From a virus, in IMG/VR virus record IMGVR_UViG_3300027801_001493, positions 32,001 to 96,000 of that record: DNA of 64,000 nucleotides; one strand, given 5' to 3'. The notes under the pieces were generated by a model. That model was not told where the DNA came from and did no database searches. It saw only the letters and a program-made list of their open reading frames with translations. A program made the translations under genes and the position numbers. This document shows positions 1,136 through 64,000 of this stretch, one piece after another. Every line of letters begins with the position of its first letter. The first letter of the stretch is position 1.

Positions 1136-2194
1136 CTAATATTGCTCTAATTTGCCTTCCCTAACCAGGTCTACACTCACACAATGTGGGCCTCCTGCAA
1201 GGGTTCTCATATGGCGCATTTTGACTGGAACTGGAGTTATGCCATGCTTCTCCATTGCACTCATTAAGTGCGTTTCTTCTTCTGGTACTATGACTGTTTC
1301 TGGATCAATACTAAGTGTATTCATGCCTATCCAACTACTTGCTGGAGCCAAGTCTTTGTATGCTTTTTGCCCTACACACATCTCTTCTGTGTACCATATA
1401 ATATCCCACCCATCAAACACATCAGGGACGGCTAATTTGCTTACCCTACTCGCATTCAACACTACAAGCCCGGGACGTAAGGGCATTATTGTACTGTCTA
1501 CATGAGCCCAGCTATAGAGATCGTGCATCATATGAACTTTAAATGCGTCTCCGAGGGTGTTCTGTAGCCATTTAGCACCCTTCTCATTACCAGTATTTGA
1601 TATCAAATACAATATATCGTACCCCATTCTAATCAAATTTGCTGGGTCTAATATAGGTTCTTCATTAGTAATGCTTGGGTCTAGTCCAGGTTGTATCCTA
1701 AACAAACTATCATTCAACATAGGTTTAGGCATTGGTAACCATTTAGAACCAGCCATCATCTTCTCTTGGAACAACTTATTGAACAAGAATGTCTCATGGT
1801 ATCTAGCTCTTAAACTCATTGCACCCTCTATAATAGTATCGCCTATCACTGTTACACTATCTCTAGGGCAGTATGCTTCGTATTGGTCAGTATGCCACTT
1901 ACCATTGGAAACTGCTGTAGTGAAGTCTACGGCTGTCGTATCGGGTCTATGAACTGTTATATCCGCTTGTTCTAGTATAGATACTAAGTTGTCTAAGTCC
2001 TCTTCTGCTTCTTCATATACCTTCTTAGGGTATCTGCCTTTGGGCATATTCTCATATTGTTCTTTGGTTAGGTTGGCATAGTTGGTTGCATGATGACTTA
2101 AATCATTCTCTGGAATGTTAGCACCAATGCTAGTGCCTATTATTATTTCTTTTAGGGGGTCCCACTCATTGCATGACCAAACTGGTGTTGTCAT
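1136..2194 (-). CDS. Amidinotransferase (AGAT/StrB family)
   Basis: NEWDPLKEIIIG N-terminus, CPRD, DPANL (Asp), WAHVDST (His), GGPHCVSVDLVR (Cys): catalytic triad intact. Confidence 0.9.
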   Translation of the reverse strand: MTTPVWSCNEWDPLKEIIIGTSIGANIPENDLSHHATNYANLTKEQYENMPKGRYPKKVYEEAEEDLDNLVSILEQADITVHRPDTTAVDFTTAVSNGKWHTDQYEAYCPRDSVTVIGDTIIEGAMSLRARYHETFLFNKLFQEKMMAGSKWLPMPKPMLNDSLFRIQPGLDPSITNEEPILDPANLIRMGYDILYLISNTGNEKGAKWLQNTLGDAFKVHMMHDLYSWAHVDSTIMPLRPGLVVLNASRVSKLAVPDVFDGWDIIWYTEEMCVGQKAYKDLAPASSWIGMNTLSIDPETVIVPEEETHLMSAMEKHGITPVPVKMRHMRTLAGGPHCVSVDLVREGKLEQY

Positions 2195-3375
2195 ACTATC
2201 CTCTGGAATTGATTCATACTATCGAAGTCATCGTTGATTATATCATACAGTTGTGTAAATGTGTCTCCGAATGATTGTTCTCTATATTTGTCCATACGTT
2301 TCATCCATACTAGAAAATGCTTATATCCATATTCCGAAGTGTTTGGTAGCATCATATAATCTTTTACTTCCTGTCTAGTTATCACTTGGAGTAATTGTTC
2401 TTTGATATTATCTGGAAAGTTTCTAATGTTCATGTAGTCTGGACCTTCTGCAAAACCTATCCAAGGTTCTTCTCCAAATGTTTCTCTTTGCCAGTCCATA
2501 ATCTCTTTTAAGTTTAAAACATTCTGTGTAGACATTGTCATGTTACCAAATATTTTTGTAGGTATTCCTAGTTCCATTGATTGTAAATCTTCTACAACTT
2601 CTAAAACAGTTTCCCACTTACCTGGATATCTTAAGTATTCAAACCTAGACTCTATTCCATCTATGCTTAAACTTATGTCAATACTCTTAAAATGTTTCCA
2701 TTGTTCTCTTAATCGTTCTGTAGGTTTGTTAGTAGCATTTGAATTGTACATAAGTTCTACTTCTTTTGCTCTGCCAGTATCAACTAAGTATTGTAGTATT
2801 TCATATTGTGTGATATTTAATAACGGTTCACCTCCAAAGAATTCTAAACGTTCTAGATTCTTTGCAACTGGTATCCATTCTTCCATAGGCACATGAGTTG
2901 CTGGAAACTTAGATACAAATGCTCCGCCATCGCCGTACTCTTTTGCATACACTTGTCCTTCTGGATCAAACTGATTACTATCATGAGCACCACAACTTCT
3001 ACAAGCAAGGTTACATACATTACTACTCCTGTACACAATAACTTTTGGTCCATCTAAGTATTTCTCTGTTTTAATAAAGTCTTCATACACATCAGTGTGA
3101 CTGTATTGCTCTAGCATACGTTGTCTTAGGCTAGGTTTACCTATTGTTTCTTCAGTAAAACATCTATTGCATTCACTAGCTTTTTCATTGTTTAAATGTT
3201 GTTGTCTAAGTTCGTTAAGTTCATCGGCATGCCATTGCTGTTCACCGCTAAGATGTGCATGGGGCCAATCGCCTGCCCCAAATGGGCACGGACTATTCAA
3301 TCCTCTGACATCTGGTCGAGTCATCATGAATGGTGCTAGGCATAAATTGTCTGGTTTTTTGTCTGGATAATCCAT
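2191..3375 (-). CDS. Radical SAM protein with N-terminal SPASM/twitch-like Cys segment
   Basis: CNLACRSC (CxxxCxxC), FFGGEPLL, SIDG; N-terminal CLAPF..CPF..CNRC; ATGA overlap with the amidinotransferase. Confidence 0.85.
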   Translation of the reverse strand: MDYPDKKPDNLCLAPFMMTRPDVRGLNSPCPFGAGDWPHAHLSGEQQWHADELNELRQQHLNNEKASECNRCFTEETIGKPSLRQRMLEQYSHTDVYEDFIKTEKYLDGPKVIVYRSSNVCNLACRSCGAHDSNQFDPEGQVYAKEYGDGGAFVSKFPATHVPMEEWIPVAKNLERLEFFGGEPLLNITQYEILQYLVDTGRAKEVELMYNSNATNKPTERLREQWKHFKSIDISLSIDGIESRFEYLRYPGKWETVLEVVEDLQSMELGIPTKIFGNMTMSTQNVLNLKEIMDWQRETFGEEPWIGFAEGPDYMNIRNFPDNIKEQLLQVITRQEVKDYMMLPNTSEYGYKHFLVWMKRMDKYREQSFGDTFTQLYDIINDDFDSMNQFQRIV

Positions 3376-21689: not shown

Positions 21690-21697
21690 ACTACTAT

Positions 21698-38770: not shown

Positions 38771-38965
38771 CTAACTGTCTCCTTCTGCTGTGTCGCATTG
38801 CTGACAGCATTCTGGTGTACCACACTTATCGTGAACTACTTCTTCTGAAAGATCCTCACCGTAACGTCCACGTTCTCTATTGCCGTCTCCGTTTAATTCG
38901 GTTGCATCTTGTTGTATTGCCTTAAAATCTTTTTTAAGTGTTACTCTCTTTGGCTCCATCTTCAT
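38771..38965 (-). CDS. Small hypothetical protein
   Basis: C-terminal [13 protein letters not shown] Cys cluster. Confidence 0.5.
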
Positions 38966-39551
38966 CCCTTGTGTTAATTATTTCGTCTGCAAGACCCCAG
39001 TCCAGAGCCTCTTGTGCAGTAAGGAAATTATCCCTATCCATCCCTATCTCAAATTCTTCGTATGTTTTTCCTTTACTGTTATGCTGTACATATATCTCAG
39101 TAAGTTCTTTTTTCATACGTTCAATCTCATGATACTGAATTGCAATATCCGATGCCATTCCTCTAGCACCACCACTTGGTTGATGTATCATTGTTCTAGC
39201 TCTAGGCAGTAAATACCTTTTGCCTGCCGCACCTGCTTGGGATAGTAAACTTCCCATTGATGCCGCTTGTCCCATTACAATAGTTGAAACGTCTGGTTTA
39301 ATGTATTGCATTGTGTCGTACATTGCCATACCTGATGTTACAACTCCTCCTGGACTATTAATATAAAAATTAATGTCTGCATTTGGATCTTCTGCTTCTA
39401 AGAAAAGTAACTGAGCACAAATACTATTTGATACTTGGTCGTTTACTTCACCGTTTAGAAACACAATACGTTCCTTTAAAAGTCTGCTGTAGATATCGTA
39501 ACTACGTTCTCCAGCACTTGTTTTTTCTATTACATATGGTACAAAATTCAT
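38934..39551 (-). CDS. clpP: ATP-dependent Clp protease proteolytic subunit
   Basis: [26 protein letters not shown] (Ser), MIHQP (His), DRD. Confidence 0.95.
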
Positions 39552-39575: not shown

Positions 39576-39923
39576 TTAAACAGATAGCTCTTTAAGTCTA
39601 GTTATGAAACTATCTACACCTTTTAAACGTTGATATGATACTTTAGCAACGGTTAAAAATTCATAGTTGTCCATGCTAATATTACGGACGTCTTCTATAG
39701 TATGTAGTTGTGACGTTATAGCTGTTAAAAGACCTTTAACAAAGGAACTGTCACTATCAAACACTACGGTATCTTCTTTTAATATTACCCACACACGACT
39801 TTGGCAACCATGCACAAGATTATCTTCATGCTGTATTGCTTTATTGTTATCTGTCTCTGATAGCTCTATAATTGCTTCATAGAAGTCCATCGGTTCCAGT
39901 TCATTTAAATAGGTTATATCCAT
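39576..39923 (-). CDS. sufE: SufE-family sulfur acceptor
   Basis: NLVHGCQSRVW active Cys, FDSDSSFVKGL. Confidence 0.85.
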   Translation of the reverse strand: MDITYLNELEPMDFYEAIIELSETDNNKAIQHEDNLVHGCQSRVWVILKEDTVVFDSDSSFVKGLLTAITSQLHTIEDVRNISMDNYEFLTVAKVSYQRLKGVDSFITRLKELSV

Positions 39924-42315: not shown

Positions 42316-44217
42316 TTAAGTTATTGTGGTATTTGCGTTGGAAATAGTCTCTTCAGATACTATTTGTGTGATTAATGACTTACCCCAACCCTGTCTACGT
42401 CTAAAGTAGAGCCTGTTGTAGTATTCATCGTCCTTAACATGTTCTAACATATCTATATTATATGCATTTTGACATGTGACTAATTCGTCATCTATTGTAT
42501 TCATGTACTCATAGAAGTTAAATCCAAAGTTTGATTGGAAAGGATACAGTTTATTAGGATCTGTAGTGTATGCTTCTTGGAACTCCAACAAGTGTGAATA
42601 CATGTATAAATCTAAATTGCAGTACTCTTGTGTTAAATGCTTGTTTACAAATTGTCTAATCTGTGTGTTATTTCTATGGAAGTCTTTTTGTGCCTCCCAC
42701 ATTAATGTGTGACCACTGAAGCCTTTGCTTTCTCCAGTTTCTAAATAGTATGTAATATGTTGCTTGGCTTGGTCGAATAACTTGCCTACTATACCATCAT
42801 CTGTTTTACATGCTTCAAACATTTTATCGTATGTTTCTTCATACTCTATGCCTTTGTGTTTATATATTATTCTTGCTATTGCTTGGCTCCATCCAAAGTT
42901 ATGGAAGTTATTAATTACCCAAGCATACAGCCAACTGTCTATAAATTTATCTTTAGGCATGTACTTGGTTCCGGTTATCAACTCGACCTTTTCAGGTATG
43001 TTGTCCTCTTCTTCGAATCCACTTATATAGTTTTCTACAATCACACTAGTTAAGCCATGCTTTTCTTTTTCGCTTGGTACGTTCATGTGTGCATTTTCTA
43101 GCAGTTGTGCCAACCAACTTTCAATAGCATTGTGTTGCCCTGCTTTAATTATTTCACATAGTCCAGACTTCCAAGTATCAAATGTCTCTAAAGGTAATCC
43201 TAATATAAGTTCTGTGTAACTAGGTATTCCTTCTCTATTACATTTTTCAAATATCATTGTAAGGTCTGACATTTCCATGTTACGTCTTTTAATCTCTTCT
43301 AGTACATCCATGTCCATACTTTGCACACTAAGAGTAAGTCCTCTATTGAATCCACTACTAATAAACTTTTTAACAATCTCTAATATCTCATCACTACTGT
43401 TCTTATACCATGTAGCATCTACTACTTTAGGATAACCGTATTGGTTTTGTAAGTCAACTAATTTTTCTGTTACTTCCATATCTCTGTCTGTGAATACACC
43501 AAAGTTAGCATCTGCAATAGTGACATAGTCTATTTGATTCTCAGCCATCCATGTTAGTTCTTGTATTACTTTAGGTATAGGAAACTGCTTAATTTTAGCA
43601 TAAGTTAAACTACCCCAATCACAAAATGTACATGCAAAAGGGCAACCTCTATTAGTTTCTAATGTGCCATTAAACACATACCCAGTGTTGTTTGCTATAA
43701 TATCGTCGAATACGCCAGTTAAGTAGGGACTCGGAATGTTTAAATCCACTAGTCTGCCGCCTTCATAGACGTCTTGTAACGGGTCGTTGTTGTTTATTGA
43801 TGTAAGTATATCCACAAACATCTCTTCGCCTTCACCTAACACTATGCTGTCTACATAGGGGTGATTATCAAAGAATAGTTCTTCTTGTGGTCTATTTGTA
43901 ACTTGTGGACCACCAAATATAATTAGTATGCTTGGATTTTGTTCTTTTAAGGATTTTGCTACATGCTTGTTGTATTCCCAATTCCACATGTAATTAGAAA
44001 AGAAAACAACCTTACAATCTTGTAGTCTATCTACGACATCGTTTGGTTGTTCTCGTTTGAAAATAATGTCTTTCAGGGTGAAAGACTTCTGTACCCATTC
44101 GTATTGATTTGCGTAACTCCATAAGCACCCTACCGAGTAAGGTAGCCAATAACCTACGAAACTGCCACCGCCTATTTTGAAGTTTGGTTGAACTAATGCT
44201 ACTTGCAATTTACTCAT
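42316..44217 (-). CDS. Cobalamin-binding radical SAM protein
   Basis: N-terminal B12-binding-like domain (WLPYS, SNYMWN, GGPQ, GEGE); ETNRGCPFACTFCDWG; DANFG; ILGLP. Confidence 0.88.
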   Translation of the reverse strand: MSKLQVALVQPNFKIGGGSFVGYWLPYSVGCLWSYANQYEWVQKSFTLKDIIFKREQPNDVVDRLQDCKVVFFSNYMWNWEYNKHVAKSLKEQNPSILIIFGGPQVTNRPQEELFFDNHPYVDSIVLGEGEEMFVDILTSINNNDPLQDVYEGGRLVDLNIPSPYLTGVFDDIIANNTGYVFNGTLETNRGCPFACTFCDWGSLTYAKIKQFPIPKVIQELTWMAENQIDYVTIADANFGVFTDRDMEVTEKLVDLQNQYGYPKVVDATWYKNSSDEILEIVKKFISSGFNRGLTLSVQSMDMDVLEEIKRRNMEMSDLTMIFEKCNREGIPSYTELILGLPLETFDTWKSGLCEIIKAGQHNAIESWLAQLLENAHMNVPSEKEKHGLTSVIVENYISGFEEEDNIPEKVELITGTKYMPKDKFIDSWLYAWVINNFHNFGWSQAIARIIYKHKGIEYEETYDKMFEACKTDDGIVGKLFDQAKQHITYYLETGESKGFSGHTLMWEAQKDFHRNNTQIRQFVNKHLTQEYCNLDLYMYSHLLEFQEAYTTDPNKLYPFQSNFGFNFYEYMNTIDDELVTCQNAYNIDMLEHVKDDEYYNRLYFRRRQGWGKSLITQIVSEETISNANTTIT

Positions 44218-51236: not shown

Positions 51237-51242
51237 AGGTTA

Positions 51243-51271
51243 ATTATACTGCATTCCTTAGTTATTGTCAA
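51243..51271 (-). promoter_or_regulatory. sigma70-type promoter; ATG at predicted +1
   Basis: TTGACA-N17-TATAAT-N6-ATG. Confidence 0.8.
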
Positions 51272-52832: not shown

Positions 52833-53331
52833 TTAAATGTTCGACTACGCATCCACTCTTTTCTAAAAAGTCTCTGCCTGATCCTTTGGCGGCATCATAT
52901 GTATTTTTAAAATATACTTCTGATATGCCTGATTGAAATATTAATTTAGCACATTCTATACAAGGCTCGTGTGTACAAAATAGTACAGCATCCTTACAAC
53001 TTTCACTGCTTTGTGCTACTTTGGCTATTGCATTTGTTTCTGCATGTAGCACTTCTGGTTTTGTTTTTAATTTGCTCCAAGTATTACCATGTGGTGAACT
53101 ATGCATAACAGCACCATCACCAATAAACTTGTCTCTCATGTGAGGAATATCATTCCATGTATCAGTAGTTTCGCATTCATTAGTCCATCCGCTAGGCATA
53201 CCATTGTAACCTATACTAATAATTCTGTTGTCTTTAACAATAATAGCACCTACTTGGGCACGTTTGGCAGTACTAAGTTCTGCAAACTGTTCTGCTACTT
53301 TTATATAGACTTCTTTAAATTTATCCTTCAC
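52825..53331 (-). CDS. dCMP deaminase
   Basis: VGAIIVKDNRIISIGYNG, HAETNAI, PCIECAK. Confidence 0.9.
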   Translation of the reverse strand: MKDKFKEVYIKVAEQFAELSTAKRAQVGAIIVKDNRIISIGYNGMPSGWTNECETTDTWNDIPHMRDKFIGDGAVMHSSPHGNTWSKLKTKPEVLHAETNAIAKVAQSSESCKDAVLFCTHEPCIECAKLIFQSGISEVYFKNTYDAAKGSGRDFLEKSGCVVEHLSE

Positions 53332-54542: not shown

Positions 54543-54612
54543 AAACGTATTTACCGTGAAATATTAGAGGTAAGGATACAGAATTGGTAACCTTATTTTG
54601 AATTTAAAGGGA

Positions 54613-55464: not shown

Positions 55465-55497
55465 TCTTTTCTCCAGTGTTAAATGCTTTTACACTTG

Positions 55498-56412
55498 TTA
55501 TTTATCATTTAATGGCAGTAACTCTACGATATTAGGAAACTCAATTACAAGTTTATGCATTTCTTCCATAGTAAAATCTTCTGCAACTTCGCCTAGCCTA
55601 ATTCTGCCTACCCTATATTCTGGTGCTGTAAACGGTAAAGGAACATTATGCTCATTGCACCACGCATAATATTCTTCCATTTTCCAATAATCCTGCTCTT
55701 CTGTATTCTTAAATTGTGGACCTTGGTCAAAATTCATTGCAAATGCTGGAGCATACGTTGTTTGTTGTCTTAATTCATCTGCATGTTCTGTTGCTAATAC
55801 TACATCTGATGTGCCAAAACATGCCGCTAAATCCTTGCCAACTGTATTATAATCTAACTCTAAAAATCCCCACATACCCCATGGTAGTTTTGAGTCAAAG
55901 TCCTCATCTGTTATTGTTAAGTCTATACCCTCTAATATGTGCGGTCTATAATATTCTTGCTTTGCCACAATAAGAACTTTATCCATATCAGTTGGAACTG
56001 TTTCTAATGTGTGTACTAGTATATTAACACGTTCTAGTAGTTCTTGTGTTTCACTACCTTTGCCATGCTCTTCTGTAAACTGTTGAAATATTAAATGTAA
56101 TTGATTTAGTCTTTCTGGTTGTAAATGTGGCTCTAAATTTAAGTCTAACAAACAAGTTAGCGGTATACTACATAGACCTAACTGGTTTACTTTGTTAATA
56201 ACAGAGTTCATTTCCTCTGCTAATACACTTGCACTATTGTTATCTTGGTTAAAAGTTTGGTCTATTCTATATAGAACATTACTGTTGGGTTCCGCTCTTG
56301 CTATCTCCAACGACTCCATAACTTTCTTTGCTATAGGTGTATCGTATAGTTTAAAATCTAGGTAACGTTTATCATTACCGATTTCACTCTGTAGTATTAT
56401 TCTCAGTTTCAT
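55498..56412 (-). CDS. Hypothetical protein
   Basis: 304-aa ORF overlapping the peroxiredoxin end. Confidence 0.65.
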   Translation of the reverse strand: MKLRIILQSEIGNDKRYLDFKLYDTPIAKKVMESLEIARAEPNSNVLYRIDQTFNQDNNSASVLAEEMNSVINKVNQLGLCSIPLTCLLDLNLEPHLQPERLNQLHLIFQQFTEEHGKGSETQELLERVNILVHTLETVPTDMDKVLIVAKQEYYRPHILEGIDLTITDEDFDSKLPWGMWGFLELDYNTVGKDLAACFGTSDVVLATEHADELRQQTTYAPAFAMNFDQGPQFKNTEEQDYWKMEEYYAWCNEHNVPLPFTAPEYRVGRIRLGEVAEDFTMEEMHKLVIEFPNIVELLPLNDK

Positions 56413-56986
56413 CTTGTTGAGCCATGTCTTCTTGTTGTTCTGCTAATGCTTGTCTTCTAACATCTTTAATTCCTGTTAAATAATTAAGCATTGATGTTGC
56501 ATCACTTACATCAAATGGATCGCCGGCATAGTTATCTTCTTTGCCTTGCTCTACAAAAATCATTTCAATATAACCATTGTCTACGACCATTGAATATCTG
56601 TGGCTTCTTAATCCAAAGTTTACTGCTTCTTTCTTAACAAGCATACCCATATTTCTAGAAAAGTCACCGTTGCCATCTGCGATTGGTTTAACATTTTCTA
56701 TACCTAAACTATCTAACCATGCATTCATAACAAATGAATCATTAACACTTAGACAAAAAACTTCGTCTACGTCCTGATCAATAATGTCATCATAGTTTGC
56801 TTCGTATCCAGGTAAATGTGTACTACTACATGTTGGTGTAAATGCTCCAGGTAGTGAAAATACCACAACTCGCTTACCACCGAATAAATCTTCTGTGTTC
56901 TCACTGATCCAGTCAAAGTCTACTCTGCCTTCTGGAATGCCTCTTCTGTTAAACTGTACCATAGGTACGGTCATCTCTACTGCCAT
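56384..56986 (-). CDS. Peroxiredoxin (Prx5/PGdx type)
   Basis: FSLPGAFTPTCSSTHLPGY, SVNDSFVMNAW, DGNGDF, RYSMVVDNG. Confidence 0.92.
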   Translation of the reverse strand: MAVEMTVPMVQFNRRGIPEGRVDFDWISENTEDLFGGKRVVVFSLPGAFTPTCSSTHLPGYEANYDDIIDQDVDEVFCLSVNDSFVMNAWLDSLGIENVKPIADGNGDFSRNMGMLVKKEAVNFGLRSHRYSMVVDNGYIEMIFVEQGKEDNYAGDPFDVSDATSMLNYLTGIKDVRRQALAEQQEDMAQQDETENNTTE

Positions 56987-57015
56987 GTCTATCTCCGATT
57001 TTTTAAAATGTACTA

Positions 57016-58509
57016 CTAATTATCACTAAATTGTTCAATATCGAATAATTCATGATATTCTTTTAGAACGTCTACCGTTCTTATTCTCTTTAATTTGTCT
57101 ACGTTGTAAGGTTCTTTAATCTTTTCATTTGTATAATTACAAATGTTATCCCAAAAATTTCCTTCTATGTTTGTTAGTTGTGCCATCATACGTTTTCTGT
57201 TTTCTTCTATCTTAGGTCTTGCTTTTAACCATCTTAAATGCATTTCTGATAAAGGTACTTCACACAATGTAGCAATCTCTTTTGAAATTGCTTTTAAACG
57301 TTTTTCACTGTCCACTATGTTATCGTAATCTTCACTGAAACCTAACTCTTCTGCTAGTGTATGAAATCCAAGTTTTTTAAACTTTGCAATCATGCCTGGC
57401 TGTCCATATAATATAAGACCTTGCCCATATACCATAGGCTTTAACACTTTTTCTGTATAAAAAGTATTCACATTTTCATGGTCTGCTACTGTTTCACATG
57501 TATACCATACATAACTATTTTCCATCTGTGGAGCATACTTACTTTCTACTGCACCTATATAAGCATGGTCTCCTGGTATACTTTGCCCAAGTTTGTAATA
57601 TTTTTTAAATGTATCGAACGTGTCTGCTGTTAATTGGTTTCTCATCATAGGTGCATTTCTTGCCAATATTTGTTTAAAATAGTCTACTGTAAGAAATTTT
57701 CCAACACCCTCTGCTTTACCAATCTTATGAAACACTTGTGGTGGAAAAGCACTTACAATACTCTTATACTTCCATGTATTAACTAAAAACAATGCCCAAA
57801 GTGCCACAGCCCTAGATTCAGAATAACGTCTATTTAAAAATGTAAATGTGTTTCCTTTTGATGTGTACCAATGCTCTTGGTCCCATGATACAAACTTTAG
57901 TTTGCCTGGAACACTTCTGTCTATACCCTTCTCTAAGTCTGCAGTATCTAGATGACCATGCATATTCCATTGTACAACATACTTAACAGGATTTACATTT
58001 TCTTTCGATGCATACTTATTAACTTGTTCTTGCCCATCAAAATTATTACCTACAAGTATAACTTTGTCTGCACTTATATCAAATAACTGCATACAAGAAT
58101 ATAGTTGTGGAATACATTGTTCTAGTTTAGGACTCTCATCTGCAAAGTTTATAACTAACGGCTTATTTAATATACCGCTGTCTAACCCATCAAAGTATGC
58201 AATCATAAAATCTACATGCTGTGGGTGAAACTCCCATGTTGTTATATGGTTTCCGTCTACAGTTTCACTACGCCCTGGGGTAGGGATAAAAAATGTTATA
58301 CTCGTTATTTCTTTATTAATCTCTTTTTGCTTACTTGATAATCCGCCTCTATGTACTTCTGTACAGGAAACTAGTTCATGCCCTAGCATTCCAGCTGGCA
58401 ATGTCATTGTCCAAGGTTCTCCTTGCCATGCATCTGATGATAAATCTACTATAAATTTTTCGCCGGTCTTGTCATGTGTACAATCCAGATACTTGATATC
58501 TAAATCCAT
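57016..58509 (-). CDS. Hypothetical protein with GT10-like C-terminal motif
   Basis: ETV...FYTEKVLKPM..G..ILYGQPG..LGF...EDYDNI. Confidence 0.5.
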   Translation of the reverse strand: MDLDIKYLDCTHDKTGEKFIVDLSSDAWQGEPWTMTLPAGMLGHELVSCTEVHRGGLSSKQKEINKEITSITFFIPTPGRSETVDGNHITTWEFHPQHVDFMIAYFDGLDSGILNKPLVINFADESPKLEQCIPQLYSCMQLFDISADKVILVGNNFDGQEQVNKYASKENVNPVKYVVQWNMHGHLDTADLEKGIDRSVPGKLKFVSWDQEHWYTSKGNTFTFLNRRYSESRAVALWALFLVNTWKYKSIVSAFPPQVFHKIGKAEGVGKFLTVDYFKQILARNAPMMRNQLTADTFDTFKKYYKLGQSIPGDHAYIGAVESKYAPQMENSYVWYTCETVADHENVNTFYTEKVLKPMVYGQGLILYGQPGMIAKFKKLGFHTLAEELGFSEDYDNIVDSEKRLKAISKEIATLCEVPLSEMHLRWLKARPKIEENRKRMMAQLTNIEGNFWDNICNYTNEKIKEPYNVDKLKRIRTVDVLKEYHELFDIEQFSDN

Positions 58510-58865
58510 TGCAATAGATGTCCTAAGATTGCTGAACTAAGTATAAACACTAGTACAGAATTTAAAATTATTAATGCTCTATCTTTCCAAAGTATTCCAA
58601 CCCAAGTCCAACCTATGGTACCTATTAAACTAAACACTTGATCCATAAATTGGTATTGTGGACCTTGAGCTCTAAATAATACTGCTGTAAGTATAAAGAG
58701 ACTTGCTGTCCATTTAATATACCAACTTAAATCTTGTTTAGGAGTAGCACTCTTGTAAACTCTATTGCTGTTTTGTATCTCGCCTATTGTGAACTCTTTG
58801 CCTGTTTTTGTTTTGACTATCGTGTCCTGACTAGGCCCATCAGTAATTTTAAATTCTTTCTTCAT
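58500..58865 (-). CDS. Small multi-TM membrane protein
   Basis: WYIKWTAS, three hydrophobic helices, WKDRALIILN. Confidence 0.65.
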   Translation of the reverse strand: MKKEFKITDGPSQDTIVKTKTGKEFTIGEIQNSNRVYKSATPKQDLSWYIKWTASLFILTAVLFRAQGPQYQFMDQVFSLIGTIGWTWVGILWKDRALIILNSVLVFILSSAILGHLLQWI

Positions 58866-59221
58866 AGTATGCCGATTTGATATTTGCCTTCGTCACTTAT
58901 CATTGTGTCTGGATTCCATGGTGGATCAAACGTTAGTGTAACTTTAACTCCGTTTATACATTCTACTGCTCTTGTGGCAAACTCTATTTCCATAGGGATA
59001 ATTTCAGCCGCCGGGCAGTTAGGTGAGGTTAGTGTCATTATGATGTTTGCATCATACTCTTGATTTACTGCTACTTGATATATAAGTCCTAAGTCATAAA
59101 CATTCAAGTTTATTTCAGGATCATATACCCTACGCAAATTTGCTATAATTTGGTCAACCAATTGGTCTTGCAAATTTTCTGGAGGACCTACTCCTTGTTC
59201 AGTTTCTTTATCGCCTGCCAT
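58862..59221 (-). CDS. sufT: DUF59/SufT Fe-S maturation protein
   Basis: VYDPEINLNVYDLGLIY, MTLTSPNCP, FDPPW. Confidence 0.9.
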   Translation of the reverse strand: MAGDKETEQGVGPPENLQDQLVDQIIANLRRVYDPEINLNVYDLGLIYQVAVNQEYDANIIMTLTSPNCPAAEIIPMEIEFATRAVECINGVKVTLTFDPPWNPDTMISDEGKYQIGIL

Positions 59222-60423
59222 ATTCCCTCTACTAATTTAACACAATCGTGTTCGTCATTGTATGGTGCAGTACTAACTCTAAATATGCCAGTACCTTTGT
59301 TGTTATATCTGTTACTTGCTGGGTAGGCACACATATGGCCCGTTCTAACACATACATCTGATATGTCTAAGAACCCTGCAATATCACTTGCATTGTAGTC
59401 TAACTCTGGATCAACAACAAAACTAAAAACACTTCTAGGATATGGATCTCCAATTAACTGTAGTTCTGGAATGTCAAACAATCCTTTGTCATGTAACATG
59501 TAATAAAATTCTGCTTCGTTCTCTTGTATTTCTTTATAGCCGACTTCCATAATCCATTCTGCCGCCGCCCCTATACTGTGTACTCCTGATATATTAGGTG
59601 TACCTGCTTCTACTTGACTGACATCATTGTTTAATACATATCCTGTTTCAAAATCTACGTGACTAACTGTGCCGCCACCTATACGTGATTCTACATCAGT
59701 AAATCCGCCTCTATGAAATAACACTCCGATACCTGTACCAGCAAACATTTTATGTCCACTAAATGCAATCCAATCAATGTTATTCAGTTTGGTGTCTATT
59801 TCTTGATGTGCAATACTTTGACATGCATCAAGTATCACTTCACAGTCATGTTCTTTTGCTATGGCTACCATTTGTTGCCACTTCAACATGTGTCCGCTTA
59901 AATTACTTTGTGTTAAAAATGCAACTATACTACCTGGGTTCTCACTACAAACTTCTACCCAATCCTGCATACTAACATCACCAGTGTCTGTTGCTTTACA
60001 AACAACTAGTCCATCATTTTCTGTAGTCCTGCCTTGTCTCATCCAAGGTAACGCATTACTGTGATGTTCCAATGCTGTTATAATTACTTTCCTTGCATCA
60101 TCTTTATAATGCTCTGCAACCATGTTTAAACTTTCTGTTGTACCGCTAGTAAATGCAACCTCAAAAGGTTCGCACCCTATTAACTTTGCTACTGAGTCTC
60201 TGGCTTTGTCATAAATGTCTGTTGCAATACCGCTAGTCTTAAAGTCTCCCCTATGTACATTTGCTCTGTAGTTATAGTAATAATCGCTAATTGCTTTTAC
60301 ACTGGTGTCCACAGTTTGTGTACTTGCCGCATTATCTAAATACGTTAAGTCACTATATGCTAGAGCAGGAAAACATGCTCTAATTTGTTTGATTGATTTT
60401 GCTTTTTTGTAGGCTTTTAACAT
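59188..60423 (-). CDS. sufS: Cysteine desulfurase SufS
   Basis: YLDNAAST, ANVHRG, GTTESLN, EHHSN, FSGHKM (PLP Lys), RTGHMCA (Cys). Confidence 0.9.
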   Translation of the reverse strand: MLKAYKKAKSIKQIRACFPALAYSDLTYLDNAASTQTVDTSVKAISDYYYNYRANVHRGDFKTSGIATDIYDKARDSVAKLIGCEPFEVAFTSGTTESLNMVAEHYKDDARKVIITALEHHSNALPWMRQGRTTENDGLVVCKATDTGDVSMQDWVEVCSENPGSIVAFLTQSNLSGHMLKWQQMVAIAKEHDCEVILDACQSIAHQEIDTKLNNIDWIAFSGHKMFAGTGIGVLFHRGGFTDVESRIGGGTVSHVDFETGYVLNNDVSQVEAGTPNISGVHSIGAAAEWIMEVGYKEIQENEAEFYYMLHDKGLFDIPELQLIGDPYPRSVFSFVVDPELDYNASDIAGFLDISDVCVRTGHMCAYPASNRYNNKGTGIFRVSTAPYNDEHDCVKLVEGIWQAIKKLNKE

Positions 60424-61709
60424 AGAAAACTTTCCACTAATATATCTTTGGCACTATCTTTATCAAAACCTCTGCTCTGCAGATAGTACATGTGTTCATT
60501 ATTAATGTTACTTATCGTACAACCATGAGAACATTCTATTTCTTTGGTATGTATATCTAGTATAGGTCTGGTATGCATTTTTGTATCTTTAGTAAGCATT
60601 AAATTATTGTTATTCATCTCTCCGTTGAAGCCTATACTGTATGGACTAACGTCGAACTTTCCTATGAAACTGGTATTAGCCTTTTCTCTTCCAACGTTTT
60701 TAATATCTATAACACTTTTGTTATTATCGTTTTGACTTTTCACTAAAACATACTGATGATACTCATTGCCAGCAAGTATATTATTTCTACCTTTTACATT
60801 TATATCTACGTGACTGCTACATTTAAAGTAAAAGTTTTCTTGTGAGTACTTACTGCCTTCATTGTTAAAATTAATAGTAACTTTACTTCCTGGATGGCAG
60901 ACAAATCTACTATCAAAAATCCCCCAGCCGCCACAGTCAACTGTGTTTCTGTCAATTACTAATTCTGCATCTTCCCTAACAATGTATGTTACATAATTCA
61001 TTTGTCCTGCTTGGGCTTTTACAGTTTCATTTATTTTGACCTTAGTGTTATATTGTACATCAACTATAGTAGTGTTTGCTTCTAGTATAGGATCTTGTGT
61101 GCTGTTCTCATAATATATGTTAAGTGGCTTATTGTAGTAACGTTCTTTAGATCCTGTTGGAAATATAATTACGTTTGTAAATGGTGTTAATGCGTATGTT
61201 AAATTTCTAAAGTCTTCAGTAGGCTCTATAATCTTAATATACTCATCTTGTTTTTGTTTATTAAATTTAATATTATCTAATATCTGCACACCAAAAGGTT
61301 TTTTGCTACCTAAGTCCATGCTAGTTAAAATAACACTATCGTTAATAACAATAGATTGTTCTTGATGTGCAACCCATTCAAATCTTTCTAATGCTTCAAC
61401 TGGATCGTACTGTGATTGTTTTGCTAATATATCTAATTGCTTTAGTTTGTTTAAATTACTAAAATTAAATTGTTCATGTTTGTTATTAGGGATACCAACT
61501 TCTCTAAGATACATTAAGTTGTCTACAAAATGATTATGTACTCCTGGAACTTTTTTTTGATATCCGCTTTGTTCTGCCAATGCAATAAAGTCAGACGAAC
61601 TAATATAGTCTGCCAAATCTTCTAATTTAAAATAACTTGCAACACCTGTTTGACTGTCTACCAGTCTTTCGCTGTAAAGATTCTTATACACTATCAAACC
61701 CTTCCGCAA
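60417..61709 (-). CDS. sufD: Fe-S assembly scaffold SufD (divergent N-terminus)
   Basis: C-terminal RPILDIHTKEIECSHG, YYLQSRG; position between sufC and sufS. Confidence 0.8.
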   Translation of the reverse strand: MRKGLIVYKNLYSERLVDSQTGVASYFKLEDLADYISSSDFIALAEQSGYQKKVPGVHNHFVDNLMYLREVGIPNNKHEQFNFSNLNKLKQLDILAKQSQYDPVEALERFEWVAHQEQSIVINDSVILTSMDLGSKKPFGVQILDNIKFNKQKQDEYIKIIEPTEDFRNLTYALTPFTNVIIFPTGSKERYYNKPLNIYYENSTQDPILEANTTIVDVQYNTKVKINETVKAQAGQMNYVTYIVREDAELVIDRNTVDCGGWGIFDSRFVCHPGSKVTINFNNEGSKYSQENFYFKCSSHVDINVKGRNNILAGNEYHQYVLVKSQNDNNKSVIDIKNVGREKANTSFIGKFDVSPYSIGFNGEMNNNNLMLTKDTKMHTRPILDIHTKEIECSHGCTISNINNEHMYYLQSRGFDKDSAKDILVESFLC

Positions 61710-62379
61710 ATATTTTTTGTGCTAATTCTTTTCCGCCACCAACTACATGGTCTTTCTTTAACACAATGATTGCATCTGGGTTTAAACTTTCAATAAGTTT
61801 TTCGTAATGTGTTACAACAATAAGTGTATTGTCTGCTGTTCGCCATTCATTTAGTTGTTTGGATAATGCTTTAATACCGTCAACATCTAAACCACTATCT
61901 GGTTCATCTAACATTGCTAGTGATGTATTAAGCATCTGCATTTGAATTAGTTCGTTCTTTTTCTTTTCGCCTCCACTAGCATCGGTGTTTAAGTTTCGTT
62001 TATCCCACCCTTCAGGTAATCCTAATGATTGGCTCAGTCCTTTAAACTTTTCTAGTGTTTCTCTAATTTCAGTACCCTTAGTGTTCAATGCTTGTTTTAA
62101 GAATTGAAAGTTGCTTAGTCCTGGTATGCTTGTTGGTGATTGAAACCCTATAAACATTCCAGCCTTTGCTCTTTCATCTACTTCAAACTCATTAATGTTT
62201 TCACCGTTAAGTTCTACATCACCTGATACTTCTAAATCAGGTCTGCCCATAATACTATGTAGTAGTGTACTCTTACCAATTCCATTAGAACCCATAATAA
62301 TATATGTACGCCCAACATCAAACTCAATGTTGAGGTTTTCTAAAACTGGACTTACTGAATAATTCGTTAATTTTAACAT
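61684..62379 (-). CDS. sufC: Fe-S assembly ATPase SufC
   Basis: GSNGIGKS, ASGGEKKKNE, LDEPDSGLD, VTHY. Confidence 0.93.
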   Translation of the reverse strand: MLKLTNYSVSPVLENLNIEFDVGRTYIIMGSNGIGKSTLLHSIMGRPDLEVSGDVELNGENINEFEVDERAKAGMFIGFQSPTSIPGLSNFQFLKQALNTKGTEIRETLEKFKGLSQSLGLPEGWDKRNLNTDASGGEKKKNELIQMQMLNTSLAMLDEPDSGLDVDGIKALSKQLNEWRTADNTLIVVTHYEKLIESLNPDAIIVLKKDHVVGGGKELAQKIFAEGFDSV

Positions 62380-62385
62380 GTGTAT

Positions 62386-62414
62386 ATTGTACTACCTTTT
62401 GTTTGTGATGTCAA
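62386..62414 (-). promoter_or_regulatory. Internal sigma70-type promoter; sufC ATG at predicted +1
   Basis: TTGACA-N17-TACAAT-N6-ATG in the sufB-sufC gap. Confidence 0.7.
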
Positions 62415-62417
62415 GTG

Positions 62418-63878
62418 TTATCCGACCGCTCCTTCAAGTGTTACACTTAACAACTTGTTGGCTTCGGCGGCAAATTCTAATGGCAGTTTTTGGAATACAT
62501 CTTTACAAAATCCGTTTACTACTAAATTCATAGCATCATCTTCGCTAAATCCTCTAGTTGCCAAGTAATACATTTGTTCTTCACTAATCTTTCCAGCACT
62601 TGCTTCATGTTCTACAGTTGCAGTACTGTTTTGACTTGTTACATATGGTATAGTTAATGCTCTACTGTCTTGTAACATTAAACTATCGCACTTTGTATAG
62701 TTAGAAGCATTTGTGGCTCCTGGGTTTATTTTAACAGCACCTCTATATACATTTGTACTGTCTCCAAAACTAATGCCTTTGGATATAATGGTGCTCTTGG
62801 TATTCTTACCTATATGAATCATTTTAGTACCAGTGTCTGCTTGTTGCTTTCCTTTAGTAACAGCAACACTAAAAAATTCTCCTGTGCTACCTTCACCTTT
62901 TAAAATACAACTAGGGTACTTCCATGTAATTGCACTTCCTGTTTCTACTTGAGTCCAAGATACTTTTGAATTTTTACCTTCACACTTGGCTCTCTTTGTT
63001 ACGAAGTTGTAAACACCGCCTACTCCATTCTCATCTCCTGGATACCAATTTTGTACTGTTGAATATTTTATCTCTGCATCGTCCATTGTAATTAGTTCTA
63101 CACAGGCGGCATGTAAAGTGTTCTCATCATACGCTGGTGCAGTACAACCTTCTAAGTAACTTACATAACTGCCTTCGTCTGCTATAATAAGTGTGCGTTC
63201 AAACTGTCCTGTGTTTCTAGCATTAATACGGAAGTAAGTGTTAAGTTCCATTGGGCATTTAACACCTGGTGGAATGTATACAAATGTACCGTCTGAGAAT
63301 ACAGCAGAGTTCAGTGTAGCAAAGTAATTGTCTGTGTAAGGAATTACACTACCTAAATATTTTTTAACTAAGTCTGGGTGGCTTTGAACTGCTTCACTAA
63401 TACTACAAAACACAATACCGTGTTTTTCTAGTTCTGCTTTAAATGTAGTAGCAACACTAACACTATCAAATACTGCATCAATGGCTACTGTTGGAATAAG
63501 GTTGTCTTGTTTAGGTTTACTTGTATCTAATCCAAGTAATGCATCTCGTTCGTGTAATGGTACACCTAACTTTTCAAACGTATCTAAAATTTCTTGTGGA
63601 ATATCACCTTCTTCAAAGAACTTAGGTGCAGAGTGATAACTCAATGCTTGGTAGTCTATTGGTTCATAGTCTAGTTCTCCCCATTGTGGTTCGCTCATGC
63701 CTTGCCATCTTTTAAAAGATTTCAGTCTAAAGTCTAACAACCATTCTGGTTCTTTTTTTAATTCACTAAGGTTTCTTACAACTTGTTCATCTAGTCCTGG
63801 TGGAAAAGAATCACTTACAACATCAGTTATAAATCCGTCTGCATACTGTTGCTTTGCATTTATGTCAGCATCTTTCAT
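62418..63878 (-). CDS. sufB: Fe-S assembly scaffold SufB
   Basis: [60 protein letters not shown]. Confidence 0.95.
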
Positions 63879-64000
63879 TATTCTACCTGCTTTGTTTTAA
63901 GTTGTAATGGATGTCCGTTGCCTCTAGCAGTTGCTAAGGCTTCAGTAGTTTTTTGTTCTGCTATCTCGAAGTTATAAGTACCAGCCACTGCTTGTCCGTG
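63878..64000 (-). CDS. clpS: ClpS adaptor, C-terminal part (not in ORF track; 5' end outside window)
   Basis: ...[35 protein letters not shown]...; TAATG overlap with sufB. Confidence 0.75.

What the first reader, a model, noticed from the sequence alone, without database searches (positions are those of the whole stretch)
58862..63878. Near-complete phage-encoded SUF Fe-S cluster assembly system
Seen: sufB-sufC-sufD-sufS-sufT in an overlapping run with catalytic motifs intact, and sufE with its Cys about 19 kb away next to clpP. The same window encodes two radical SAM clients and a peroxiredoxin downstream. Known: SufBCD-SE is the oxidation- and iron-limitation-resistant Fe-S pathway. Inference: the phage carries a self-sufficient Fe-S supply for its own enzymes. 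Single Fe-S carrier genes are common in phages, but a full scaffold-desulfurase set is unusual and is the strongest system-level candidate here.
Basis: partly seen in the sequence, partly recalled or inferred. Interest (0 to 1): 0.8.

Follow-up and report, generated by a model that had tools for sequence, protein, structure and literature searches.

The report
Phage-encoded SUF iron-sulfur assembly operon
A fragment of an uncultured marine giant (T4-type) phage carries an intact, conserved set of bacterial-type genes for building iron-sulfur clusters (sufB, C, D, S, T, plus sufE elsewhere), so this virus seems to bring a whole cofactor-building pathway and not just a single helper gene.

Summary
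On the minus strand, 58862-63878 encodes SufB, SufC, SufD, SufS and SufT with every catalytic residue I checked intact. SufE, with its Cys, lies at 39576-39923 beside clpP.

The window is part of a 119-kb IMG/VR virus record that CheckV rates 32% complete, implying a genome of roughly 370 kb. It has a T4/Rak2-type PolB, a gp44-like clamp loader, tail-fibre-like proteins and three tRNAs, but no capsid or terminase gene. A 328-kb complete relative (PolB 54% identical) has Gp23-type capsid, terminase and sufBCD.

The operon is not a chimera:
- It lies in the same gene order in at least 16 IMG/VR contigs and three ENA assemblies.
- An independent run holds identical contigs that bridge both operon borders.

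The phage SufB forms a virus-only clade. SufS is 56-93% identical among unnamed metagenome proteins seen on contigs up to 345 kb, against 41% or less for any other protein. Within the clade, dN/dS is about 0.04-0.26.

"Self-sufficient" and "for its own enzymes" remain inference, and no A-type carrier was found in the fragment. I found no paper describing a full phage SUF set. This scan has noted the same system on other DNA (e1-5319705, e1-5319689, e1-5320267).

The parts
62418..63878 (-). sufB, scaffold subunit (486 aa). Its start overlaps the clpS stop (TAATG).
   Evidence: NF008773 scores 805 bits, above the cut-off. It aligns with E. coli SufB 5awf_A at E 4e-185, and C254, C405, E434, R226, Q285, W287 and K303 all have equivalents. 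Junction read.
62386..62414 (-). Promoter-like site (TTGACA-17-TACAAT, 11 of 12 matches) in the 38-nt sufB-sufC gap.
   Evidence: Consensus scan only (L130 10414-10386). This is not evidence of function.
61684..62379 (-). sufC, ABC-type ATPase (231 aa).
   Evidence: TIGR01978 scores 230, above the 212.8 cut-off. Walker A, Q-loop, SGGE signature, Walker B D-E and H-loop are present against SufC 2d2e.
60417..61709 (-). sufD, scaffold partner (430 aa from a TTG start; the true start may lie a few codons downstream).
   Evidence: SUFBD_core E 3e-33. C393-S-H395 matches E. coli C358-S-H360. The AlphaFold model (pLDDT 84, pTM 0.86) matches E. coli SufD over its full length: 5awf_B E 2.5e-11, TM 0.65-0.69.
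59188..60423 (-). sufS, PLP-dependent cysteine desulfurase (411 aa).
   Evidence: Aminotran_5 E 9e-84. The best NCBIfam model is the SufS subfamily, though below its cut-off. K225, C365, R360 and H120 are invariant in 13 phage orthologues.
58862..59221 (-). sufT, a DUF59 Fe-S maturation factor (119 aa).
   Evidence: FeS_assembly_P E 9e-15. TIGR02945 scores 112 bits, below its cut-off of 143. The DPE...TSPNC69P motif is present.
39576..39923 (-). sufE, sulfur acceptor for SufS (115 aa), next to clpP.
   Evidence: Pfam SufE scores 51 bits against a cut-off of 27. G-C40-QS aligns with the active Cys of solved SufE. C40 is invariant in relatives, and homologues occur in G001-G004.
58500..58865 (-). 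DUF6552 small protein (121 aa) with hydrophobic stretches that look like membrane helices. It is coupled to sufT by a 4-nt overlap. Its role is unknown and it is not shown to be part of SUF.
   Evidence: PF20189 E 1e-15. It follows sufT in most full-operon relatives. Sequence read.
57016..58509 (-). A 497-aa protein from virus-only clusters with a weak GT-B glycosyltransferase-like fold. Probably not an Fe-S factor.
   Evidence: No Pfam, NCBIfam or PHROG match. Atlas clusters are 100% viral. The model has pLDDT 67, and the best fold matches (OtsA, UGTs) have E about 1e-3 and TM about 0.3.
56384..56986 (-). Peroxiredoxin (Redoxin family, 200 aa) downstream in the same orientation.
   Evidence: PF08534 E 8e-26. 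It is conserved in the same place in relatives.
63878..64000 (-). 3' end of clpS. The gene runs to 64177, beyond the window. rpmG (L33) and hsp20 lie further upstream.
   Evidence: ClpS E 1e-27, Ribosomal_L33 E 2e-5, HSP20 E 2e-18. The order is the same in the ENA contigs.
38934..39551 (-). clpP, next to sufE.
   Evidence: CLP_protease E 5e-77.
42316..44217 (-). B12-binding radical SAM enzyme (633 aa), a candidate Fe-S client.
   Evidence: Radical_SAM and B12-binding domains. CPFACTFC motif at residue 192.
2191..3375 (-). Radical SAM enzyme (394 aa), a candidate Fe-S client.
   Evidence: Radical_SAM and Fer4_12 domains. CNLACRSC motif at residue 121.

Best explanation
This is a genuine, functional SUF iron-sulfur cluster assembly pathway carried by an uncultured marine T4-type jumbo phage.

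**Mechanism, inferred by homology with E. coli SUF.**
1. SufS uses its PLP (K225) to take sulfur from cysteine, forming a persulfide on C365.
2. The persulfide passes to SufE C40 and then to SufB C245.
3. The cluster is built at the SufB-SufD interface, at SufB C397 and E425 and SufD H395. Two SufC ATPases drive this step.
4. SufT helps hand clusters to target proteins.

**Likely clients.** These are the phage's own radical SAM enzymes and ferredoxin, and possibly host enzymes whose supply fails during infection.

**Setting.** The genes sit in a stress and proteostasis neighbourhood (hsp20, clpS, peroxiredoxin, and clpP next to sufE). That fits SUF's known role under oxidative stress and iron scarcity.

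**Shown versus inferred.** Shown: gene presence, intact motifs, phage context, conservation and purifying selection. Inferred: complex formation, activity, and which proteins are the clients.
For: **Identity and motifs.** See the observation check. The SufD model matches E. coli SufD over its full length.

**Phage context.**
- G000 is an IMG/VR virus record that CheckV rates 32% complete.
- PolB matches phrog_262 at 1e-196 and is 41-45% identical to jumbo phages Phosso, Atu_ph07 and the Rak2-like group.
- The contig also has a gp44-like clamp loader, tail-fibre and structural-protein matches and three tRNAs. It is 94% coding.
- PolB is 77% identical in G002, at the same roughly 70-kb distance from sufB. 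It is 54% identical in G003, a 328-kb genome with terminal repeats that has Gp23 capsid, terminase and sufBCD.

**Not a chimera.**
- The gene order hsp20-rpmG-clpS-sufBCDST-DUF6552-...-peroxiredoxin recurs in at least 16 IMG/VR loci and three ENA assemblies.
- 18 DNA runs from more than a dozen studies each hold half or more of the stretch's sampled words.
- In independent run X4, an 8,746-bp contig with no mismatch spans 54102-62847, and another spans 63558-64996.
- GC content of the operon equals that of the contig.

**Virus-specific lineage.**
- The window's SufB lies in a 17-row full-operon clade (SH-aLRT 100) inside a 28-row virus-only clade (98), apart from the 80 best bacterial SufB.
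- The best bacterial identities are SufB 65%, SufC 43%, SufD 37%, SufS 41% and SufT 50%, against 72-89% for the closest viral contigs.
- Among 5.8 billion proteins, SufS relatives at 56-93% identity are all unnamed metagenome proteins, seen on contigs up to 345 kb. The next hits drop to 41% or less.

**Selection.** Within the clade, dN/dS is 0.04-0.26 for all five genes; for SufB against L006 it is 0.11 at dS 0.65.

**Clients.** The fragment has two Radical_SAM genes, a QueE-like gene and a ferredoxin-like ORF. The complete relative G003 has 22 Radical_SAM matches.

**SufS-SufE complex model: weak support only.**
- The score is 0.59 and the best of 3 controls is 0.00.
- The pass mark was reached by 58 of 80 solved complexes and 2 of 110 mismatched pairs. 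Scores of 0.60 or under came from only 7 of those 80 solved complexes and from both of the mismatched pairs that passed.
- The three runs agree in at least 92% of contacts, and the partner's pLDDT is at least 87.
- A similar complex is already solved (8vbs), so the pass may come from the model's memory.

**Transcription: weak hint only.** RNA-library contigs identical to parts of sufB, sufS and sufT occur in two metatranscriptome studies. DNA carry-over is not excluded.
Against: - No capsid, terminase or portal gene lies on this 119-kb fragment or on the two closest long relatives. The link to a virion rests on IMG/VR/CheckV classification, the replication genes and a more distant complete relative.
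- G003's own SufB sits in a different branch, nested in Alphaproteobacteria.
- SufD, SufS and SufT score below NCBIfam's equivalog or subfamily cut-offs.
- SufS has GHMCA in place of the usual GHHCA.
- No A-type carrier or NifU domain was found in G000, G001 or G002. Two thirds of the genome are unseen.
- dS is near or above saturation for most pairs, so the dN/dS values are rough.
- No biochemical or genetic data exist, and the host is unknown.
Confidence: 0.8

Rival explanations
1. The suf segment is cellular DNA: a host insert joined by misassembly, or the whole contig is a bacterial or plasmid fragment wrongly called viral. This is what has been argued for the 'phage' MaAM05/PhiMa05.
For: - No terminase or capsid gene is on the contig.
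- The contig is rich in cellular-type genes: Clp proteases, DnaJ, L33, a FabF-like synthase and NAD synthase.
- The only GenBank phage record with sufBCDS lies among panBC and pxpA and is disputed as bacterial.
Against: - The same junctions on both sides of the operon recur in at least 16 IMG/VR loci, three ENA contigs and identical contigs of an independent run.
- No bacterial genome among the best 80 exceeds 65% identity for SufB or 41% for SufS, whereas viral contigs reach 89% and 81%, and SufS of unnamed metagenome contigs reaches 93%.
- T4-type PolB, a clamp loader, HNH endonucleases, tail-fibre-like proteins and many virus-only ORFs lie on the same molecule.
- Composition is uniform across the contig.
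Confidence: 0.03
2. The genes are phage-borne, but their job is not general cluster assembly. One option is that SufS and SufE mobilise sulfur for thiolation of tRNA or DNA. Another is that the scaffold proteins bind and redirect the host's SUF machinery, as a decoy or modulator.
For: - The contig carries nucleic-acid-modification genes: QueE-like, GTP cyclohydrolase and dCMP deaminase.
- Other phage clades keep only sufB, or sufB and sufC with a 188-192-aa SufD remnant, so partial sets are useful to phages.
- The phage SufS is diverged: below the family cut-off and with GHMCA.
Against: - Every residue needed for cluster assembly is retained and invariant in the phage clade, not just those for sulfur transfer. 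These include SufB C397 and E425, SufD H395 and the SufC ATPase motifs.
- SufD keeps the full-length fold.
- All five genes are co-conserved under purifying selection.
Confidence: 0.08
3. The pathway assembles clusters but is not self-sufficient. Phage subunits form mixed complexes with host Suf proteins and depend on host carriers. The main beneficiaries are host enzymes needed for phage replication, not phage-encoded enzymes.
For: - No A-type carrier or NifU domain is in the held fragments of this clade.
- Only two or three Fe-S clients are seen in this fragment.
- SufB stays about 63% identical to bacterial SufB, so mixed complexes are conceivable.
Against: - SufC, SufD and SufS are only 37-43% identical to the best bacterial homologues, yet co-evolve as a set within the phage clade.
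- The more distant relatives G003 (complete) and G004 (47% complete) do carry an A-type carrier, and have 22 and 9 Radical_SAM matches respectively.
Confidence: 0.15

Closest known systems
E. coli-type SUF system (SufABCDSE; SufBC2D scaffold PDB 5awf, SufC-SufD 2zu0, SufS 1jf9/6mr2, SufE 1mzg, SufS-SufE 8vbs)
   Same: It has the same component set and the same order, sufB-C-D-S. SufE rather than SufU is the sulfur acceptor. All key residues are kept. SufB aligns end to end at E 4e-185, and the SufD model matches 5awf_B over its full length.
   Different: - It is carried by a virus.
- No sufA was seen.
- sufE is unlinked, 19 kb away beside clpP.
- sufT (DUF59) closes the operon, as in many non-enteric bacteria.
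- SufC, SufD and SufS are at most 43% identical to the bacterial homologues compared.
- SufS has GHMCA.
- The upstream partners are clpS, rpmG and hsp20 rather than a Fur/OxyR/IscR-controlled sufA promoter.
Single Fe-S 'auxiliary metabolic genes' of marine phages: A-type carriers and IscU (Nishimura 2017, PMC5332604), sufE and nifU (PMC8940887), sufB in amoC-phages (bioRxiv 10.64898/2026.06.18.733297)
   Same: These are phage-borne Fe-S biogenesis genes in marine or freshwater T4-like and jumbo phages. They co-occur with radical SAM genes, paaD/DUF59 and clpP.
   Different: Those reports describe one or two genes that must plug into host machinery. Here the scaffold, ATPase, desulfurase, sulfur acceptor and maturation factor are all present. 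I found no paper in the searchable library reporting that full set in a phage.
Microcystis 'phage' MaAM05/PhiMa05 (MW495066.1), sufB-C-D-S-iscU
   Same: It is the only record in the GenBank phage collection with a full suf run. Its SufB is 60% identical to the window's.
   Different: Its suf genes lie among panB, panC and pxpA. [quoted passage not shown] It is not a reliable precedent. The window's operon, by contrast, is embedded in conserved phage synteny.
Other viral suf arrangements in IMG/VR
   Same: They come from the same broad group of marine and freshwater viral contigs. Ten sufB-only contigs and L028 share the virus-only SufB clade with the window.
   Different: - Many contigs carry sufB alone.
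- L038, in the complete 328-kb G003, has sufB, sufC and a 192-aa SufD remnant, and L026 has sufB with a 188-aa one.
- The L038 SufB branch is nested in Alphaproteobacteria, which implies a separate acquisition.

Membership tests
SUF Fe-S assembly system (SufBC2D scaffold + SufS/SufE) | SufB with the sulfur-acceptor Cys (E. coli C254), the tunnel residues, and the cluster-site C405 and E434 | tested here: met
   C245, R217, Q276, W278, K295, C397 and E425 align with these residues in 5awf_A. NF008773 scores above its cut-off.
SUF Fe-S assembly system (SufBC2D scaffold + SufS/SufE) | SufC ABC ATPase with Walker A and B, Q-loop, signature and H-loop | tested here: met
   G30..GKST38, SGGE135-138, D158-E159 and H191 are present. 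TIGR01978 scores above its cut-off.
SUF Fe-S assembly system (SufBC2D scaffold + SufS/SufE) | Full-length SufD (N-terminal helices, beta-helix, C-terminal SufC-binding helices) with the His360 equivalent | tested here: met
   H395 lies in C-S-H-G. The model (pLDDT 84) matches 5awf_B, 2zu0 and 1vh4 over about 415 columns with TM 0.65-0.69. The sequence score is below the TIGR01981 cut-off.
SUF Fe-S assembly system (SufBC2D scaffold + SufS/SufE) | Type II (SufS/CsdA-type) cysteine desulfurase with the PLP lysine and catalytic Cys | tested here: met
   K225 and C365 are invariant in 13 phage orthologues. The best PDB and NCBIfam matches are SufS-type enzymes. It scores below the SufS subfamily cut-off and the motif is GHMCA, so equivalog status is not established.
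SUF Fe-S assembly system (SufBC2D scaffold + SufS/SufE) | SufE (or SufU) sulfur acceptor with the active Cys | tested here: met
   Pfam SufE scores above its gathering threshold. C40 aligns with the Cys of solved SufE and is invariant in relatives. The gene is unlinked, 19 kb away.
SUF Fe-S assembly system (SufBC2D scaffold + SufS/SufE) | A-type carrier (SufA/ErpA) for delivery to targets | tested here: inconclusive
   PF01521 was not found in G000, G001 or G002, all about 30% complete. It is present in G003 and G004. Many bacterial suf operons also lack sufA.
SUF Fe-S assembly system (SufBC2D scaffold + SufS/SufE) | The proteins assemble (SufBC2D, SufS-SufE) and build or transfer clusters | not testable with these tools
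   The only data are a weak-support SufS-SufE model: score 0.59 against 0.00 for the best control, for a pair whose complex is already solved. No biochemical data exist.
Tailed phage genome (Caudoviricetes, T4-type jumbo lineage) | Major capsid, terminase and portal genes on the same molecule | tested here: not met
   Terminase_6N and Gp23 were not found in G000, G001, G002 or G004, which are fragments 30-47% complete. Portal was not searched. This is expected if the structural module lies in the missing two thirds.
Tailed phage genome (Caudoviricetes, T4-type jumbo lineage) | Phage-type replication and virion-associated genes, and kinship with complete phage genomes | tested here: met
   PolB matches phrog_262 at 1e-196 and is 41-45% identical to cultured jumbo phages. 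It is 54% identical to G003, which has terminal repeats, Gp23 and terminase. A clamp loader, exonuclease, HNH endonucleases and tail-fibre-like proteins are also present.

The most novel reading that the evidence does not exclude
Marine T4-type jumbo phages keep an old, virus-specific lineage of the whole SUF pathway: scaffold, ATPase, desulfurase, SufE and SufT. It has evolved apart from any sequenced cell and makes the infected cell's Fe-S supply independent of host suf/isc expression. It is run as part of a phage stress and proteostasis programme (hsp20, ClpS/P/A/X, DnaJ, peroxiredoxin). This would be a virus-encoded cofactor-biogenesis machine, and other phage clades would show stepwise reduction from it: sufB alone, or SufC with a mini-SufD.
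Probability: 0.5. Interest if true: 0.7.

Novelty: new member of a known kind. Interest (0 to 1): 0.62.

Why it matters
Until now, phage Fe-S genes have been described as single helpers that plug into host machinery. A complete scaffold, desulfurase and acceptor set, conserved and under selection in a cosmopolitan marine phage group, means a virus may take over a whole cofactor-building pathway.

This bears on three questions:
- how jumbo phages supply their many radical SAM enzymes;
- how infection copes with iron scarcity and oxidative stress in surface seawater;
- how viral 'auxiliary metabolic genes' should be interpreted in iron and sulfur budgets.

The diverged phage proteins (SufC, SufD and SufS at most 43% identical to the bacterial homologues compared) are also a natural test set for what the SufBC2D/SufSE mechanism really needs. 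The phage clades with reduced sets offer a series for studying how such a machine is trimmed or repurposed.

Tried and rejected
- **Capsid and terminase on the contig.** Pfam Terminase_6N and Gp23 were found only in the complete relative G003.
- **Large ORFs with no PHROG match.** These are the 677, 633, 428 and 497-aa ORFs in the window and the 520 and 468-aa ORFs outside it.
- **MaAM05 as a precedent.** Rejected: its suf genes have cellular flanks and a published comment disputes the record. The other 'phage' records with SufB hits are 44% identical or less (one unannotated human-gut contig, 61%) and were not inspected.
- **A-type carrier (PF01521) and NifU (PF01106).** Neither was found in the fragments of this clade. 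This is not evidence of absence from the full genome.
- **Host identification.** The nearest bacterial SufB hits sit at 61-65% and are spread over many phyla. The first named bacterial SufS hits are only 35-37% identical. The host remains unknown.
- **Function of the 497-aa ORF and DUF6552.** There are only a weak GT-B fold hint and virus-only clusters. I do not count them as SUF parts.
- **Abundant RNA upstream of hsp20.** It has no Rfam family and its folding z-score is -0.59.
- **RNA cover of the operon.** sufC and most of sufD had no RNA-library contig in either run. With contigs this proves nothing either way.
- **Literature.** Eight searches found no report of a full phage SUF set. The library is incomplete.
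- **Earlier notes on this genome.** There are none.

Full report
**What is there.** The window is bases 32001-96000 of a single 119,027-bp contig. The contig has 36.9% GC, is 94% coding, has no terminal repeat, and has nearly all genes on the minus strand.

At 58862-63878 on the minus strand lie five genes:
- sufB, 62418-63878
- sufC, 61684-62379
- sufD, 60417-61709
- sufS, 59188-60423
- sufT, 58862-59221

SufB and SufC pass NCBIfam's equivalog cut-offs. SufD, SufS and SufT match the right models below their cut-offs, but pass Pfam's thresholds.

**Motifs, from residue-level alignments to solved structures.**
- SufB keeps the equivalents of E. coli C254, C405 and E434 and of tunnel residues R226, Q285, W287 and K303.
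- SufD keeps C-S-H395-G, matching H360.
- SufC keeps Walker A and B, the Q-loop, the SGGE signature and the H-loop.
- SufS keeps HHSN, the PLP lysine K225 and the catalytic C365, in GHMCA rather than GHHCA.
- SufT has the DUF59 motif with C69.
- SufD aligns with E. coli SufD by sequence only in its last 90 residues. However, an AlphaFold model built on 12 phage orthologues (pLDDT 84, pTM 0.86) matches E. coli SufD over the full length: 5awf_B at E 2.5e-11, TM 0.65-0.69.
- SufE is at 39576-39923, directly beside clpP and 18.9 kb from sufT, with the active G-C40-QS.

One small correction applies: sufB and sufC are separated by 38 nt holding a promoter-like site, while the other junctions overlap.

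**Is it a phage?** The contig is an IMG/VR virus record that CheckV rates 32% complete, which implies a genome near 370 kb. It encodes:
- a family-B DNA polymerase (phrog_262, E 1e-196) that is 41-45% identical to jumbo phages Phosso, Atu_ph07, Vibrio 2.275.O and the Rak2-like group;
- a gp44-like clamp loader, an exonuclease and HNH endonucleases;
- large proteins with tail-fibre and structural-protein matches;
- three tRNAs;
- many ORFs with no family or only virus-only relatives.

No terminase or Gp23-type capsid gene lies on it or on the two closest long relatives, which are also about 30% complete. Both genes are present in G003, a 328-kb record with direct terminal repeats. G003's PolB is 54% identical to the window contig's, and it carries sufB, sufC and a short sufD. 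G002 shares PolB at 77% identity, at the same roughly 70-kb distance from sufB, so the two contigs are colinear over that span.

**Is the operon a chimeric or host insert?** No.
- A scan of IMG/VR with SufB found 40 loci. At least 16 of them carry the same neighbourhood on both sides of the operon, with graded divergence: SufB 71-89%, SufC 46-85%, SufD 28-72%, SufS 36-81%.
- Three ENA assemblies with SufS at 93% identity show the identical order: hsp20, rpmG, clpS, sufB, C, D, S, T, DUF6552, a 509-aa ORF, peroxiredoxin and onwards.
- Eighteen DNA runs from more than a dozen marine studies each hold half or more of the stretch's sampled words.
- In one run not flagged as a possible source, an 8,746-bp contig with zero mismatches spans 54102-62847, from the downstream genes through sufT, S, D and C into sufB. 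Another spans 63558-64996, from sufB into clpS, rpmG and hsp20. Contigs break only in the most conserved part of sufB, where other organisms' sequences pile up.
- GC content across the operon (33-37%) equals that of the contig.

**Relation to cellular SUF.** The 80 best bacterial SufB found in 185,579 species genomes are all 61-65% identical and come from many phyla. In a tree of 119 sequences, the window falls in a 17-row clade of full-operon viral contigs (SH-aLRT 100). That clade sits inside a 28-row virus-only clade (98), which also holds contigs carrying sufB alone. A second viral clade, which includes G003, is nested in Alphaproteobacteria, so phages acquired sufB more than once.

For the faster-evolving proteins the gap is wider. 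The best bacterial identities are SufC 43%, SufD 37%, SufS 41% and SufT 50%. A search of 5.8 billion proteins with SufS found 38 clusters at 56-93% identity, all unnamed metagenome proteins. Several of them were seen on contigs of 276-345 kb. Identity then drops to 41% and to about 36% for named bacterial SufS. The sampling of bacteria is by best hit, so a closer, unsequenced host homologue cannot be excluded.

**Selection and expression.** Pairwise dN/dS against clade members is 0.04-0.26 for all five genes (up to 0.44 against the more distant full-operon contigs). For SufB against L006 it is 0.11 at dS 0.65. Most other pairs are near saturation, so the values are rough. The catalytic residues are invariant across the phage orthologues.

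Two metatranscriptome libraries from different studies hold contigs identical to parts of sufB, sufS and sufT. Contigs cannot show strand, and DNA carry-over is not excluded, so this is only a hint.

Consensus scans suggest the following layout (consensus matches only):
- a terminator-like hairpin after hsp20;
- a promoter-like site inside rpmG, ahead of clpS-sufB;
- another promoter-like site in the sufB-sufC gap.

**Mechanism.** By homology with the E. coli system, the steps would be:
1. SufS forms a persulfide on C365.
2. SufE C40 accepts it and passes it to SufB C245.
3. The cluster forms at the SufB (C397, E425) / SufD (H395) interface, under control of the SufC ATPase dimer.
4. SufT aids maturation of target proteins.

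A SufS-SufE complex model gave weak support only:
- The score was 0.59 and the best of 3 controls was 0.00.
- The pass mark was reached by 58 of 80 solved complexes and 2 of 110 mismatched pairs. Scores of 0.60 or under came from only 7 of those 80 solved complexes and from both of the mismatched pairs that passed.
- The runs agree in at least 92% of contacts, and the partner's pLDDT is at least 87.
- A similar complex is already solved, so the pass may reflect the model's memory.

Candidate clients in this fragment are two radical SAM enzymes, a QueE-like enzyme and a ferredoxin-like ORF. The complete relative G003 has 22 Radical_SAM matches. Whether clusters go to phage or host enzymes is open. 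No A-type carrier or NifU domain was found in the held third of the genome, so 'self-sufficient' is not shown.

The neighbours are hsp20, clpS, a peroxiredoxin and clpP beside sufE, with ClpA-like, ClpX-like and DnaJ genes elsewhere on the contig. They place the operon in a stress and proteostasis setting.

**Genes coupled downstream.** DUF6552, a small protein with hydrophobic stretches that look like membrane helices, overlaps sufT by 4 nt and follows sufT in most relatives. The next gene, a 497-aa ORF, belongs to virus-only clusters and has only a weak GT-B glycosyltransferase-like fold. I do not count either as part of SUF.

**Comparison with what is known.** Papers report single Fe-S genes in phages:
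- A-type carriers and IscU, with paaD/DUF59, clpP and radical SAM genes, in marine T4-like genomes (PMC5332604);
- sufE and nifU in oxygen-minimum-zone viromes, where the authors note sufE without sufS (PMC8940887);
- sufB in freshwater amoC-phages.

The one GenBank 'phage' with sufBCDS, MaAM05/PhiMa05, has cellular flanks and is disputed as a bacterial fragment. Eight literature searches found no description of a full phage SUF set. The library is incomplete, so this is not proof of novelty.

This scan has noted the same system on other DNA: e1-5319705, e1-5319689, e1-5320267, e1-5339039 and e1-5799666. Those are unchecked AI notes. I repeated the key tests here independently.

**Verdict.** This is a real, intact SUF pathway maintained by purifying selection in a cosmopolitan marine T4-type jumbo phage. 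Mechanistically it is a canonical SUF system, so I class it as a new member of a known kind. The interest lies in its viral carrier, its virus-only lineage and its completeness.

Noticed in passing
Just beyond the window's right end: contig C1:96881-97330 (L130:12881-13330), upstream of hsp20: RNA-library contigs identical to L130:12968-13271 have depth 394 and 1089 in two metatranscriptome studies. Neighbouring genes show 3-17, and DNA depth is flat. The roughly 450-nt intergenic region is 67-84% conserved in relatives and has a promoter-like site just upstream (TTGATT-18-TATAAT). It has no Rfam family and its folding z-score is -0.59. It is a candidate abundant phage small RNA or a long hsp20 leader. 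The strand is unknown.
   Followed up: partly
window 19494-22492, 38934-39551, 63878-64000; contig C1:95878-96880 and C1:106177-107448: The contig carries a large proteostasis set: a ClpA-like ATPase (731 aa), DnaJ, ClpP, ClpS, a ClpX-like ATPase, Hsp20 and a ribosomal protein L33 gene.
   Followed up: no
window 44484-56412: A dense island of metabolic genes downstream of the operon. It holds NAD synthase, a nitroreductase, a UDP-glucose dehydrogenase-like gene, an IMPDH/GMP reductase-family gene, MazG, GGACT, a TauD dioxygenase, dCMP deaminase and a FabF-like ketoacyl synthase.
   Followed up: no
window 57016-58509: A 497-aa ORF coupled to the suf run belongs to virus-only protein clusters. 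It has only a weak GT-B glycosyltransferase-like fold (E about 1e-3, TM about 0.3, model pLDDT 67).
   Followed up: partly
L026:10292-10858, L038:16454-17032; sufB-only loci L020-L025, L033, L036, L044: Other viral contigs carry reduced sets. Some have sufB alone. L026 has sufB with a 188-aa protein, and L038 has sufB and sufC with a 192-aa one, that keeps only the C-terminal part of SufD. The L038 SufB clade is nested in Alphaproteobacteria, which implies a separate acquisition.
   Followed up: partly
G003 (328-kb complete relative) and G004: G003 has 22 Radical_SAM matches and G004 has 9. Both carry an A-type Fe-S carrier, and in G004 it lies about 100 nt from a SufE-like gene.
   Followed up: no
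contig C1:7682-9847 (outside the window): A QueE-like radical SAM gene and a GTP cyclohydrolase gene suggest a 7-deazaguanine pathway.
   Followed up: no
L140 (ENA contig, 66.6 kb): In this assembly sufB, sufD and the ketoacyl synthase are each split into two or three ORFs, while the sister contigs L138 and L139 have them whole. The cause of the splits was not checked.
   Followed up: no
L001 (MW495066.1, 'Microcystis phage MaAM05'): The sufBCDS-iscU run at the end of this 274-kb 'phage' record is flanked by panB, panC, pxpA and a gluconeogenesis-factor gene. This agrees with the published comment that the record is probably bacterial DNA.
   Followed up: partly
window 9455-10001: Three tRNA genes (Met-CAT, Leu-TAA, Arg-TCT) lie next to the tail-fibre-like genes.
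   Followed up: no
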